NCBI GenBank assembly: GCA_951406725.2
Contig: OX597816.1
Coordinates: 58,776,001-58,840,000 of the forward strand
Direction: 5' to 3'
From: Octopus vulgaris
Taxonomy: Eukaryota
DNA: 64,000 nucleotides
Below the pieces are notes generated by a model that did no database searches, was not told the origin of the DNA, and was given only the letters and a program-made list of their open reading frames with translations. Positions 46,256 to 56,537 of the stretch are shown in pieces (the first letter of the stretch is position 1; the number at the start of each line of letters is the position of its first letter). Both the position numbers and the translations under genes were made by a program.

Positions 46256-48383
46256 AGAAAGGTTACGTGGAAATGCGTTTCTATTTTCTATGAAGCGTTA
46301 ACAACTGAGTTATTTCCTGGCCATTTTATGGAAACCTATCCTTTCAGACATAGTTCTTTTGCTATGATATTCAAATGTGGCCAACACAAAAGGTTCTGAC
46401 ATTAGCATTTGTAAAGCGTCTCCTTTATCTGATGTGTGTAGTTCTTAAATGAGGACGGTACCCAAGGTGTGTTTTTTTAGTAATGTGTAGTGAATATGAC
46501 ACGGGGCTGTTGAATCAGATTAGGAGGTCGCATTGTCATTGCAAATGTTTAAAGGCCTTTGTTTATAGAACTGGTGTGTCTGGGTTGCGATAGATGACGC
46601 CACTGTGGGAACGGTTATGAGGGAGAAGTATGTGTTGCTGTTGTTGTTTAACCTCAGGTCAACGTTAATCAAACGGAATTACAAAGACACTCCAGCCGTG
46701 ACCATACAGCCTGTATACACACACACACACACACACACACACACACTTACTAGAATCTCATTATTCAACATGTCCTTCTTTATGCTATGGAGAAGTGAAC
46801 TCTGAGGAAGATTTAGCTGTTATTTCAAGTAAGTACAATGACTAAATGCTCCTTCAATGGCTTCTGAAGGGTTGTTGTTGTTGTTGCTGCTGCTGCTGCT
46901 GTTGTTGTTGTTGTTGTTATTGTTAAATAGCTCCTGATCGACTGAAGGAATAAACCTTTGATTAAACGTTTCCCATCCGTGACCATCTTGTCTTTTGTGT
47001 ATCAAAGACGACATTGTTCAATGGACCTGTCTTTTATTTTAAGCCCGAACGGTGCGATTTAAGGGACATTTGGCTGCTCTTTCAAGGCAGCACATGAAGA
47101 GTGCAGCCTGTGTGTGTGTATTTGTGTGTGAGCGTGTGTGTGTGTATGTGTGTGTGTGTGTGTGTGTGTGTGTGTGTGTGTGTGTGTGTGTGTGTGTGTG
47201 TGTGTGATATCGTATGGCGTGACATCGAGCTTAGGTAGGGAAGAAAGAGTGAGGGGAACACAACTGATCCTTAGAGTAGACAAAAGTTATTGAAAGAAAG
47301 AAAGGAAGGAAGGAAGGAAAGAAGGAAGGAAGGAAGGAAGGAAGGAAGGAAGGAAGGAAGGAAGGAAGGAAGGGAAGGAATGGAGGGAAGGAGGGAGGAA
47401 GGAAAGAAGAAAGAATGGGAGACACATTGAGGGAGTAGTAATGAAATCTATTTAAATAGGGGAGCAAAGAAAGGGAGCAAATACGTGTGTATGCGCACGT
47501 GTGTGTGCATTGTATGTATGGGGGCGGGTTGGAGTTTGTGTTAGCTGCATATGTGTGTCTATGTGTGTGTATGTGCATGTATAAGTGTATGTGTAACTTT
47601 CTCTCTCCCTTCGTGTGTTTGTGAGGAAGAGGCAGTATGACTCTGTCTACATATTTAAGGTCTTTCAAAGATGTTGACGATGTTAATTCACTTTGGTACT
47701 TGTGACTCCCTGTACTCTCTGTCTATATGTAAATACAAAAAGGTGTATTACGTGTGGTAATTAGGTGTAACAAAGTGGTAGGTATGTGGAGTATTCGAGA
47801 TTATCCTTTCATCTCTGTCAACCCGTAAATTCCTCTCCCTTTGAAGTTAAATACCTTAACGCAATTTGAGATTAATATTTTCGTTACCTACTGCCTTCGT
47901 AAATTTCCGTAATGAGAGGCGTATGTGCAGCCCTCGGGAGCCTTTTTAGGGTCATCATCGCTGATGGAGCGAAATGAGGCAAACCCCATGGTCCTTTTAG
48001 TATCGTCATGACGGATGAGACGAAGTGGGGTGGGGGATTATCCTCAAACCAGAGAATTGCCCGAGTGGAACTCAACTGCTATCTTCCAAGGAACAGTAGA
48101 AAGTATTATACGGCGGAATAAACCAGAAAATTACATTGATGTTTAACCTAAGGCCAACGTGGACCAAACAGACTTGTATATCAGGGACTCTGTTGCCCAA
48201 ACTATCCGACTTCTTCCTCTAAGAGAGTTGGATGAGATTAGAAAAATATTTTTGCTGACTTTTTAGTATTTCGTGCGACCACGTGGAGTTTCTCCCGGTG
48301 GCCTGTAAATTATGATTGTGATTATTATTATTATTATTATTATTATTATTATTATTATTATTATTATTATTATTATTATTATG

Positions 48384-48638
48384 ATTCTATGTTTTTTGCT
48401 TTATATTTGTACAAGTTGGCTCCAAGTCTCACCCAGAGACCTCAAGAGACAACAGGTTGGAAGTTCATGTTGTTATGCCTAGTGTGCCATATATTGGGGG
48501 GGGGGTTGTACTAATGAATGTCTAAAAAAAAATTTTTTTTTTTTTATTTTTTTTTAAAAACCGAAAATTATGTTTGTTTTAAACCTTGAGATTACATAGA
48601 AAGTATTTTGCGTAGGATATGAGCAGTTCCCATGAGCA
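48384..48638 (-). mobile_element. R4/Dong-type 3' end, family A (copy 1)
   Basis: LMGTAHILRKILSM* plus a 3' UTR nearly identical to 50503-50740. Confidence 0.85.
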
Positions 48639-48729
48639 TATTATTATTATTATTATTATTATTATTATTATTATTATTATTATTATTATTATTATTATTA
48701 TTATTATTATTATTATTATTATTATTATT

Positions 48730-49310
48730 CAGTAGTTTTATTTTTATAGCGTGCTTTCACTTCACTACCGAGCGCAGCTCTGTGTGCCTTGGGTATGTGC
48801 TGTGATTTGTTGTGATGCTCTGATGATTATTGTATGGAAAGTGTAGGATGTATGCAGTGCCTAGTAGTGCAATTTTCTTTATGTTATATGTGCTTGCAAG
48901 TCCTGGTGTTTTTGTTATGTATTTGTCTGAATATTTTTTTATCATGCCTAATGCACCTACTATGATAGGAATTGTTTCTGTTTTTAGATTCCACATTCTG
49001 GTTACCTCTATTTCCAGGTCTTTGTATTTTGAAAGTTTCTCCATTTCTTTTAGAGACACGTTGTCATCTGCCGGTATTGATACATCAATTAGAAAGCATT
49101 TTTTTCTTCGTGATCTCTGACAACTATATCTGGTCTGTTGGCCTTAATTTCTCTATCTGTGTGTATCGGCATATCCCAGAGTATGGTTGCTTTCTCGTTT
49201 TCTGTGACCTTTTCTGGTATGTGCCTATACCATCTTTTTTCTGTTGTTATTCCATAATGTTGGCATAGCTTCCAGTGTATGTAGGTCCCAACTCTGTCGT
49301 GTCTGTGAAT
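48730..49310 (-). mobile_element. R4/Dong-type RLE endonuclease fragment, family B
   Basis: RHDRVGTYIHW...ILWDMPIHTDREIKANRPDIVV...FLIDVSIP..KEMEKLSKYKDL...PIIVGALG. Confidence 0.9.
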
Positions 49311-54167: not shown

Positions 54168-54189
54168 ATTATTATTACTATTATTATTA

Positions 54190-54526
54190 CGTGATGAAAA
54201 CTCTCAGCTTATTTTGCTGGGTATGATGGAAAGTGTCAGCTGTCCACAGCCAGCAGACTAGGTGACACTTGTTTACTGGTCATGCTTCAAGAACCCTGTG
54301 AAGAATTCTTGAAGTTCCCAGCAATGCTAATTTTTGTAGGTGTTCTACCTTCACACTTGCACCGATCTTTTTCAGCCATGTTGGTAGTTGAGTGCTGATA
54401 CTTCCAAATGCACCAATTATCATTGGTATCACATCTACTCTCTTCATTGACCACAACCTTCGTATTTCCCACTTCAAATCATCATAGTTGTTTATTTGTT
54501 CTTCTTTCACATTAATCCTGTTGCCT
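54190..54526 (-). mobile_element. R4/Dong-type 3' end, family F
   Basis: KEEQINNYDDLKWEIRRLWSMKRVDVIPMIIGAFG...LQKLALLGTSRILHRVLEA*. Confidence 0.88.
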
Positions 54527-56537
54527 ATAATTATATTATTATCATGATTATTATTATTATTATTATTATTATTATTATTATTATTATTATTATTATTATT
54601 ATTATTATTATTATTATTATGGTTGTGTGCTGGCAGAATAGTTAGAGAGTCGAAAATTAATATACTCTATTACTCTTATATTCTTGCATAACGACAGACA
54701 TACAGACGGACAGAAAGATAGATAGATAGATAAATAGATAGATAGATAGATAGATAGATAGATAGATAGATAGATAGATAGATAGATATGTATATCAGGA
54801 ATGTGGGTTAATATCACTAAATGTTGATCTGAAGATACGGTGAAACTAACAGTTGTAATAACGTCGATGGTTAATCAAGCTTTCGAATAAAGTGAGTCGA
54901 CCCGACATTTGTTTATATTGCGTTCTCCATTGGTTGAACTTTATTTCCCGCATTTGTATATGTGTATATGGGTGTGTATGGATGGGTGGACGAGCGTGAG
55001 TGTGTGTATAAATACATTTGTATAAAAATATAAATATATGTATTTCCTAGGATATATATACATACATATACATACATATACATATATATATATGATAATG
55101 TTGATTTATATTAACATACTTAAGTAGGTACAACCCATCCCACTTTTAATTCCTACACGTGTGTATACGTATAAATATTTATGTAGATGTACATACACGC
55201 ACACACTTATGCACACATATATAAATATAAATATAAATACAAATAAATATTTTCACAAACATTTGTATATACAAGACTAACATCCAAAGAAATTATTACA
55301 ACCGTACATGCATACATGCATACATGCATACATGCATAGATATATATATATATACACACAGATATATAGGTGTGATGTATATATACATACATACATACAT
55401 ATATATACATATGCATACGCATAAACCCCAGTGCACACTTGACATCCTCTGGCTGAGACTTTTGGGTAGAAGAACTGAAGTAATTGAAAACAGTTTAATT
55501 TCATGCGTAAAATAAAAATCTTAAGTAGATTTATTTTTTTAATCCTTCTGTTTCTTACGAATTTTTTTCACTTTATTTTACTTATTTTATTTATTTGTTT
55601 TTCGAAAATGTGCATTTTACTAATTATTTGACGCCAATCAACATAAAAATTTTCTACAGAATCAGCATTTTGAAATTTTTGGTTATGTGGTGGGGTATCA
55701 TCTTTCCTTGAAATCTAATATTTTATTATAGAATTAGATAATCCTGTTTTATAGAGTGGGATTATCTGCTAGACCAGCTTCAACCTGTGAAGAAAGAAAG
55801 AACTAAAAAGACCTGAAGTGTTTATCAAAGGAGGAGGATACAGATATAAGAATGAGACTATTGGTCATAGAATGAAGTGAAACGGTTTTAGCTGGGAATG
55901 AAAACAGCTTGAACGTTCATTGCTTCTGTCTTCTCCAGAAGTTTTAGGACAGAATTACGGGAGTCAAGTGATTGAGAGCAATTAGACCTTGCTCCACTAT
56001 GTGGATATTTCACAGACGTTTTGTCATCTATATTAAACCTGGAAGGTAGAAAACCCAACAAGGAAGGCATCTGTTTTCGAAACGTTAGCCAAACTTGCCT
56101 CAAATTACACTCTGTTATCCTTGAAATAGAGGGCTCTTCGGGTAGTGTTGTCCTAGATACATGATGCCCAAGAAAGGGGCGGGGTGCTTATGATTGGAGC
56201 ATTATTGGACGTTGGACGTAGAGCTGAGCAGGGACTAAACGATAACAACTGTAATATCAAGCAGTACTTATTGCGAGTCATTTGAATCGTGACTCATAGT
56301 CTTACTTACTCATGACTCCACTGGCTCATAGTATAGTACTGCATGATATTGTTGACGAATAATATTACTGCTATATGACATAATTGTCACACGACGCACG
56401 TCATTATTGCAATATGACATCACTGCTATATGACATTACTGACACTATAAAGACTATCTAACTACTTAGCTGTCATAACTGTCACATGACATCAGTGCTA
56501 TATGACATTACTGACAAATGACATTATTGTTCTGCGA

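What the first reader, a model, noticed from the sequence alone, without database searches (positions are those of the whole stretch)
48310..54618. A (TAA)n landing strip holding seven co-oriented R4/Dong retrotransposon ends from about six families
Seen: seven 5'-truncated fragments, all on the minus strand, each bounded by (TAA)n or a closely related trinucleotide tract. They encode varying lengths of the same C-terminal region (RHD, PD..D, KE..K..KY, GALG). The protein sequences and 3' UTRs clearly differ between families; only family A occurs twice. This is therefore repeated independent insertion, not tandem duplication. Established: Dong-type members of the R4 clade use a restriction-like endonuclease and target TAA repeats, which fixes their orientation. 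Inference: each insertion leaves TAA on both sides, so the site regenerates and becomes a self-growing archive shared by several lineages. Such a single-orientation archive could also feed small-RNA silencing if transcribed antisense; that is speculative.
Basis: partly seen in the sequence, partly recalled or inferred. Interest (0 to 1): 0.82.

Follow-up and report, generated by a model that had tools for sequence, protein, structure and literature searches.

The report
Jumping-gene pile-up in TAA repeats
Seven broken copies from six jumping-gene families of the Dong type, plus three copies of a short non-coding partner-like element, sit head to tail in TAA repeats, an unusually large example of a pile-up that is common across this genome and likely follows from these elements' already known habit of inserting into TAA.

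Summary
In detail: seven 5'-truncated LINE ends from six families (A twice), all on the minus strand, separated by 12 (TAA)n-type tracts. Full-length family C encodes one ORF with RT, CCHC knuckle and restriction-like endonuclease and no N-terminal zinc finger, i.e. Dong-type; placement against labelled references was not tested. The site is not special in kind. In a random 1 Mb, 44 of 48 intact 3' ends and 30 of 46 5' junctions abut TAA (background 0.85%), 43 of 62 elements lie in clusters, and 26 of 27 close neighbours are co-oriented. Inserts per TAA site fit a geometric (self-reinforcing) better than a Poisson law; this strip is in the far tail. TAA targeting by Dong, in molluscs too, and Dong-R4 activity in octopus are published. 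Notes of this scan describe like pile-ups in other genomes. Silencing is untested. The freshest item is X, about 23 copies per Mb, likely Dong-mobilised.

The parts
48322..54619 (-). whole strip: 12 (TAA)n-type tracts (1,451 bp) with 11 inserts
54190..54547 (-). family F LINE 3' end (end of RLE, 3' UTR with stem-loop); older family
53415..54165 (-). family E LINE 3' end, degenerate (6.9% substitutions from family majority), CAA-rich tail
53169..53320 (-). 152-nt stretch matching one other locus, G000:C10:104681585-104681736 (98%), joined to the 5' end of a truncated X: likely template-switch capture
53044..53165 (-). element X, last ~120 nt (0.8% from majority)
52067..52872 (-). family C LINE 3' end (RHD to end, 3' UTR); five head-to-tail copies of an internal 29-mer at its 5' junction; young family with intact 1,235-codon frames elsewhere
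51767..52033 (-). element X, positions ~26-292 of the majority joined straight to the tail (internal deletion)
50976..51529 (-). element X, full length (~555 nt, non-coding, sharp ends, TAA both sides)
50507..50897 (-). family A LINE 3' end, copy A2
49837..50228 (-). family D LINE 3' end (PD..D to end, 3' UTR)
49532..49737 (+). abundant SINE (S) in opposite orientation, 268 BLAST hits per Mb; not TAA-specific
48731..49315 (-). family B LINE 3' end (RHD to end, 3' UTR); young family
48382..48640 (-). family A LINE 3' end, copy A1 (last ~15 codons and 3' UTR; different subfamily from A2)
47750..48321 (.). flank with no other match in the genome search

Best explanation
The strip is a pile-up of independent insertions by six Dong-type LINE families and a likely Dong-mobilised short element (X) in (TAA)n repeats, and it likely grew because each insertion leaves TAA on both sides and so adds a target. 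Shown: the element anatomy, TAA flanks on both sides, fixed orientation, different families and divergences, genome-wide clustering. Inferred from R2-group biology: the C-terminal restriction-like endonuclease nicks the TTA strand, whose 3' end primes reverse transcription on an RNA held by its 3' stem-loop, which fixes orientation; synthesis usually stops early, giving 5'-truncated pieces, sometimes after re-copying a short stretch or jumping to another template. Inferred from cluster sizes: target number rises with each insertion, giving a long-tailed size distribution in which this site is one of the largest. First targets likely come from other repeats (ATT-tailed SINE S on the opposite strand, a tRNA-like SINE with an internal TAA tract) or plain microsatellites.
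For: Full-length C: single ORF, Pfam RVT_1 E 6e-30; model pLDDT 87 aligns best to R2 proteins through to the C-terminus, Z 36.8, rmsd 4.0, 773 aligned; CCHC, RH, PD..D..K..KY conserved at 90% or more in 60 rows, N-terminal zinc finger in 0 of 60. Random 1 Mb: 3' TAA 44 of 48 (TTA 0), 5' TAA 30 of 46 (LINE 13 of 23, X 17 of 23; TTA 1), background 0.85%; 43 of 62 in clusters against 7-11% in nulls; 26 of 27 close pairs co-oriented against 12 of 19 distant pairs. Family-searched loci: 3' TAA 117 of 132, 5' TAA 72 of 103, highest in C (16 of 17), X (25 of 29) and B (8 of 10). Inserts per TAA site 0:53, 1:15, 2:8, 3:6, 7:1; log-likelihood geometric -93.7, Poisson -102.9. Window copies are 0.8-6.9% from their majorities. 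Relatives in metagenome contigs: 24 of 37 have (TAA)3+ within 900 nt of the ORF end. A 3' stem-loop covaries across families. Published: Dong targets (TAA)n in insects, molluscs and cnidarians (PMC7998251, passages; PMC3812793, passages).
Against: Over-dispersion can also come from unequal tract length, chromatin or selection; 83 sites cannot separate these. 16 of 46 random 5' junctions lack TAA within ~40 nt, and only 4 of 11 for E and 5 of 11 for D in targeted loci. No age polarity among neighbours (8 versus 11), so insertion into the newest tail is not favoured. X does not match a model of the LINE 3' stem-loop at E up to 10 and has no BLAST similarity to the LINE references. No labelled Dong/R4 sequence was in the tree.
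Confidence: 0.82

Rival explanations
1. Same elements and target, but no self-reinforcement: the site began as an unusually long or accessible TAA tract, or lies where inserts are tolerated, and simply collected many independent hits.
For: Empty TAA sites vary in length (median 45 bp, mean 68) and some occupied sites hold over 1 kb of tract; no age polarity; no host-gene Pfam domain among 127 open frames of the window that were scanned.
Against: Tract number rises with insert number in the strip (12 tracts, 11 inserts); 69% of copies cluster even when block density is held fixed (null mean 11%, maximum 32%). This rival can act together with the best explanation.
Confidence: 0.25
2. TAA is only a tail that each element makes, and clusters come from nesting, recombination or tandem duplication at those tails.
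For: L304 holds seven family-B copies at 99.3-100% identity, six with one truncation point; 3' TAA is more regular than 5' TAA.
Against: 5' TAA at random truncation points is about 75-fold over background and in one orientation; the window's inserts belong to six LINE families plus X with different truncation points; contigs of independent runs show other truncated C copies running into the TAA repeat (loose ends).
Confidence: 0.06
3. The strip is a maintained trap locus that is transcribed antisense and yields small RNAs against several Dong families.
For: Short pieces of six families in one orientation within 6.3 kb; it is larger than all 100 random 10-kb bins and 40 hit-centred loci (9 intact 3' ends against maxima of 8 and 7).
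Against: Orientation follows from the target alone; a geometric law fitted to the sample predicts some tens of sites with 10 or more inserts (26); only Dong-type elements and their companions are enriched.
Confidence: 0.05
4. An assembly artefact joined unrelated loci at TAA repeats.
For: Simple repeats are weak points in assemblies; no record laid spans a tract.
Against: No N in the window; the same architecture appears at many loci and in 16 of 35 random clusters; misjoins would not favour one orientation of mixed families while keeping SINE S opposite.
Confidence: 0.03

Closest known systems
Dong (Bombyx mori), DongAg (Anopheles gambiae), DongBg (Biomphalaria glabrata), Darwinula Dong1/2; R4/Dong clade
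   Same: Single ORF with RT and C-terminal restriction-like endonuclease, no N-terminal zinc finger, (TAA)n target (PMC7998251 passages; PMC3812793 passages; here).
   Different: Here six lineages at 34-58% identity share one target in one genome, at about 39 pieces per Mb, with most copies in mixed co-oriented clusters; the passages I read give no cluster statistics. The HDV-like 5' ribozyme shown for B. mori Dong (PMC3774820, passages) is only a partial fit in family C and was not found in B.
Octopus Dong-R4 LINEs in repeat annotations
   Same: Dong-R4 is abundant and recently active in octopus: 5 families and 1,129 recent insertions (PMC13282606, parts 1-2 of 3 of the text), 92.7 Mb and 51 families (its supplement, one row); expanded in coleoids (PMC8967140, passages); a full-ORF Dong in O. 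bimaculoides (PMC9115989, passages).
   Different: In what I read these papers do not discuss TAA targeting, co-oriented pile-ups or a short partner element; 'TAA', 'microsatellite' and 'nested' are absent from the PMC13282606 supplement. Its library on Zenodo was not visible and may hold X as an unclassified SINE.
R2 elements (R2Bm, R2Tg) and their short non-autonomous derivatives
   Same: Closest solved structures; target-primed reverse transcription, frequent 5' truncation, template jumping (recalled).
   Different: R2 targets one 28S rDNA site and carries N-terminal zinc finger(s) (PMC7998251, passage); a microsatellite target is regenerated and is genome-wide. X shows no sequence of a known partner's 5' or 3' end.
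Microsatellite-targeting APE-type LINEs (Waldo, Mino, Kibi, Koshi)
   Same: Sequence-specific insertion into simple repeats (PMC3812793, passage).
   Different: They use an N-terminal apurinic endonuclease and other repeat units; the elements here have a C-terminal restriction-like endonuclease.

Membership tests
R2-group (RLE) non-LTR retrotransposon | single ORF with RT followed by a PD-(D/E)XK endonuclease | tested here: met
   1,235-codon frames in L031, L032, L034, L036; RVT_1; model aligns to R2 proteins to residue 1156 of 1156, Z 36.8, rmsd 4.0, 773 aligned; PD..D..K..KY conserved. Full-length copies seen for C and near-full for B only.
R2-group (RLE) non-LTR retrotransposon | CCHC zinc knuckle and RHD motif before the endonuclease | tested here: met
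   C969, C972, H981, C986, R997, H998 at 98-100% in 60 rows; present in majority translations of A-F.
R4/Dong clade | no N-terminal zinc finger | tested here: met
   pattern absent in 60 of 60 aligned proteins, family C included.
R4/Dong clade | diverged N-terminal Myb/SANT-like domain | tested here: inconclusive
   Confident four-helix N-terminal domain with conserved W7 and W39, also in B; no Pfam Myb hit; fold search did not cover it and the domain folded alone was poor (pLDDT 48).
Dong lineage | insertion into (TAA)n in fixed orientation | tested here: met
   random sample 44 of 48 at 3', 30 of 46 at 5', opposite orientation 0 and 1; targeted loci 117 of 132 and 72 of 103.
R4/Dong clade | RT phylogeny groups with named Dong, R4, Rex6 and apart from NeSL, HERO, R2 | not testable with these tools
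   no labelled reference sequence was retrieved (one search names none); tree of 47 unlabelled rows only shows A/B/C and D/E/F as deep lineages among TAA-flanked relatives.
Dong lineage | HDV-like self-cleaving ribozyme at the 5' end | tested here: inconclusive
   my descriptor finds a partial fold starting at the 5' junction in 2 of 4 C copies (0-2 of 100 shuffles as good), none in B, X or 7 metagenome relatives; Rfam has no relevant hit. Sensitivity of the descriptor is unknown.
R4/Dong clade | target-site duplication | not testable with these tools
   hidden inside the microsatellite; needs empty-site alleles.
SINE (element X) | short, non-coding, discrete ends, high copy number | tested here: met
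   ~555 nt, longest frame 47 aa, shared start and end in 40 full copies, 23 per Mb.
SINE (element X) | tRNA/5S/7SL-derived head with Pol III boxes | tested here: not met
   no box A or B by my patterns, nothing from ARAGORN, no relevant Rfam match. A decayed or unusual promoter is possible.
SINE (element X) | 3' tail shared with a partner LINE | tested here: inconclusive
   X has a strong 3' hairpin (z -5.5) of like layout in a 7-row alignment, but a LINE-only model does not find it and BLAST shows no similarity. The partner may be an unsampled family.
piRNA trap cluster | antisense precursor transcript and small RNAs | not testable with these tools
   no run on record as RNA was listed and only contigs were available.

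The most novel reading that the evidence does not exclude
Element X is a non-autonomous partner of Dong LINEs without a recognisable Pol III head, present in roughly 60,000 copies, and together with six or more ancient Dong lineages it turns TAA microsatellites into self-amplifying, shared sinks that take up most new insertions and make a large share of the genome's TAA repeats; these sinks would be a rich-get-richer process that can be fitted genome-wide.
Probability: 0.5. Interest if true: 0.5.

Novelty: new member of a known kind. Interest (0 to 1): 0.3.

Why it matters
It shows that a striking locus is the tail of an ordinary genome-wide process, and puts first numbers on it: most Dong-type copies sit beside another one in the same orientation, and 58 of 138 sampled TAA tracts touch such an element. 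That bears on how octopus-type genomes absorb a very active LINE at little cost, on where their TAA microsatellites come from, and on insertion calling, since new copies land in repeats where short reads fail. X would add a short passenger to a LINE clade for which my searches found none described. A silencing role would matter more, but nothing here points to it.

Tried and rejected
Frameshift in the family-B endonuclease as programmed recoding: rejected. The A-run is 7 in all 16 distinct copies from B-query loci (a biased set), but 6-9 elsewhere (8, in frame, in 6 of 17) and it differs among otherwise identical L304 copies: run-length noise. Age polarity along clusters: none (8 versus 11). 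SINE S as a TAA-specific element: no; only 15 of 115 3' ends and 8 of 141 5' ends abut the repeat, always on the TTA side. Rfam on the strip, on the C 5' end and on X: only low-complexity or sub-threshold matches. An autonomous partner carrying X's tail: 117 of 124 X 3' ends follow X body; the 4 rows with LINE sequence upstream look like neighbours or chimeras. First metagenome scan with the single C-terminal protein found no relative; the alignment scan did. Sequencing runs: no RNA holder listed; contigs were cut at the TAA tract, so adjacency was not tested. N-terminal domain folded alone: low confidence. Host gene around the strip: among 127 open frames scanned (of 205 listed) only RT and mariner-type transposase pieces hit Pfam; small exons would be missed. 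The random sample stayed at 1 Mb. Literature searches for a Dong-dependent SINE or for co-oriented arrays in TAA repeats gave nothing relevant by listing; subscription papers such as Kojima and Fujiwara 2004 and Repbase reports were not searchable, so absence from print is not established.
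Full report
Setting. The window is G000:C3:58776001-58840000 in a 2.80-Gb animal genome. Its repeats look like those of an octopus; that label is recalled and comes from no call. The window has no N.

Observation. 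Masking the trinucleotide tracts between 48322 and 54619 leaves 12 tracts (1,451 bp) and 11 segments. Majority sequences built from copies at other loci align at about 63-70% nucleotide identity in their longer coding matches and 34-58% amino-acid identity over the last ~245 residues, so there are six families. A1 and A2 differ in truncation point and by a 29-nt insertion and a C-run, a variant also seen in L041. The copies lie 0.8-6.9% from their majorities (the window's own copies were among the rows used for the majorities, so these values are slightly low). Four inserts were missed: three pieces of a non-coding element X in the same orientation and a SINE (S) on the plus strand at 49532-49737.

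What the LINEs are. The C fragment gave 78,100 first-look candidates, and many of the 150 scored hits lie in long open frames. L031 holds a 1,235-codon frame with an RT domain. A model from 60 sequences (pLDDT 87) matches R2 proteins best (Foldseek E 6e-34; Z 36.8, rmsd 4.0, 773 aligned, through the last residue; LINE-1 ORF2p follows at Z 32). The CCHC knuckle, RH and PD..D..K..KY residues are conserved at 90% or more and no row has an N-terminal zinc finger (0 of 60). PMC7998251 (passages) defines R4/Dong by RT plus restriction-like endonuclease, a diverged Myb/SANT domain without zinc fingers, and a (TAA)n target in most insects, molluscs and cnidarians; PMC3812793 (passages) lists Dong, DongAg and DongBg on TAA; PMC3636483 (passages) gives the R2-group clades. 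I could not obtain labelled references, so clade placement rests on layout and target. The tree (47 rows, C-terminal region, midpoint root for drawing) puts A/B/C with metagenome relatives (95/90) and D/E/F in another branch (92/90), C being nearer to outside elements than to A or B: several old lineages share the target. Among metagenome relatives whose ORF end is present, 24 of 37 show (TAA)3+ within 900 nt (loose criterion, near-duplicates included, several contigs end early). A 3' stem-loop is shared by A-F and relatives: 79.6% of 167 cells pair and 38 change on both sides, against 27-44% paired when slid (I chose the 21 segments and the structure by eye, so this leans towards the structure). 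A model built from it ranks the seven LINE ends first among 16 window matches, six of them by construction.

Is the site special? I drew 20 blocks of 50 kb at seeded random positions on 28 contigs. From 85 raw hits, weak ones were dropped (DNA under 56 bits, protein under 25) and collinear pieces merged, leaving 62 elements: 39 LINE (5 by protein only) and 23 X. Intact 3' ends abut TAA in 44 of 48 cases and TTA in none; 5' junctions in 30 of 46 and TTA in one; background is 0.85%. At a 600-bp gap 43 of 62 lie in clusters (sizes 1:19, 2:9, 3:6, 7:1) against 11% (maximum 32%) when shuffled within blocks; 26 of 27 close pairs are co-oriented against 12 of 19 distant pairs. Loci fetched by each family's own search agree: 117 of 132 at 3', 72 of 103 at 5', with E lowest (6 of 16, 4 of 11). 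Contigs from independent runs also show truncated C copies running into the repeat. Scaled up, the sample means roughly 110,000 LINE pieces and 60,000 X copies; PMC13282606 reports Dong-R4 as 92.7 Mb in 51 families (supplement row) with 1,129 recent insertions.

How clusters grow. Of 83 TAA-containing sites, 53 have no insert, 15 one, 8 two, 6 three and 1 seven; a geometric law fits better than Poisson (log-likelihood -93.7 versus -102.9) and predicts about 26 sites with ten or more inserts genome-wide against 0.0007. The strip's 9 intact 3' ends exceed all 100 random 10-kb bins (maximum 8) and 40 hit-centred loci (maximum 7): it is a far-tail case of a common process. Heterogeneity among sites could give the same shape, and neighbours show no age order (8 versus 11). 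A second route exists: L304 has seven B copies at 99.3-100% identity, a tandem amplification; it does not apply to the mixed strip. Seeds: S abuts the repeat in a minority of copies and only on the TTA side (15 of 115 at 3', 8 of 141 at 5', TAA 0); a tRNA-like SINE with an internal TAA tract recurs in the sample (by eye) and hosts C and B copies in L028 and L286. 58 of 138 tracts touch a co-oriented LINE or X, 2 an opposed one.

Element X. About 555 nt, no frame over 47 codons, 8,955 first-look candidates, the same start and end in 40 full copies, TAA at 28 of 29 3' ends and 25 of 29 5' ends, always in the LINE orientation within clusters. It shares the junction habits of the LINEs: short repeats of its first bases, as in C (five copies of a 29-mer) and B (about 27 copies of the first 24 nt in L288), and one window copy carries 152 nt that match one other locus at 98%. 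It has a strong 3' hairpin (z -5.5) laid out like the LINE one, but the LINE-only model misses it, BLAST finds no link to the references, and no Pol III box or tRNA was found. Dong dependence is therefore inferred from target and orientation, not from shared sequence.

Mechanism. Shown: anatomy, flanks, orientation, clustering. Inferred from R2-group biology (recalled; PMC3636483 passages for target duplication in R4): strand-specific nicking in the repeat, priming on the element's 3' end, early termination, TAA left on both sides. A partial HDV-like fold begins at the 5' junction in 2 of 4 C copies; PMC3774820 (passages) shows self-cleavage for B. mori Dong; this stays open.

Silencing and assembly. 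No RNA holder was listed and only contigs were available, so neither small RNAs nor long-read continuity was tested. Co-orientation needs no selective explanation.

Novelty. Target, clade and octopus abundance are published. Five searches found no paper on co-oriented multi-family arrays or a Dong partner element (listings only; subscription journals, Repbase and the Zenodo library of PMC13282606 were not visible). Three unchecked notes of this scan describe like pile-ups in other genomes and led me to PMC7998251. Verdict: real, large for its kind, mechanistically expected; interest 0.3.

Noticed in passing
window 53169-53320; L202:1501-1652 (G000:C10:104681585-104681736): 152 nt matching one other locus at 98% are joined to the 5' end of a truncated X copy inside the TAA strip: likely a template switch onto a cellular nucleic acid.
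   Followed up: partly
L304 (G000:C1:94559000-94568999): Seven family-B 3' ends, 99.3-100% identical, six with the same truncation point, separated by TAA tracts: tandem amplification as a second way to build arrays.
   Followed up: partly
L288, L289; window 52728-52872; L045, L003: Head-to-tail repeats of a short stretch at 5' junctions: about 27 copies of the first 24 nt of full-length B, five copies of a 29-mer in the window's C copy, 2-3 copies of the first bases of X; looks like repeated re-priming by the RT.
   Followed up: partly
L033, L036, L039, L044: Full-length family C has a 5' leader of about 1.6 kb with a ~450-nt tandem repeat and, at its very start, a partial HDV-like fold.
   Followed up: partly
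L028, L286; random blocks: A tRNA-like SINE carries an internal (TAA)n tract that is used as an insertion site by C and B, so it spreads fresh targets.
   Followed up: no
L046:6245-7008: Five short, diverged C-like 3' ends (68-79% to the C majority) follow a young C copy at ~160-bp spacing; possibly another family or an old tandem array.
   Followed up: no
L131-L135 block (random block 7), 32.2-36.8 kb: Two clusters of opposite orientation meet tail to tail (five plus, two minus), the one opposed pair among 27 close neighbours.
   Followed up: no
window 9267-9752 (-), 18229-18537, 29189-30057, 38600-38944 (+): An RT fragment and several mariner-type transposase fragments; no host-gene Pfam domain among 127 frames scanned.
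   Followed up: no
window 36210-37428: About 1.2 kb of mixed CAA/TGA/TAG-type trinucleotide repeats on the minus strand with almost no pure TAA and no Dong insert.
   Followed up: no
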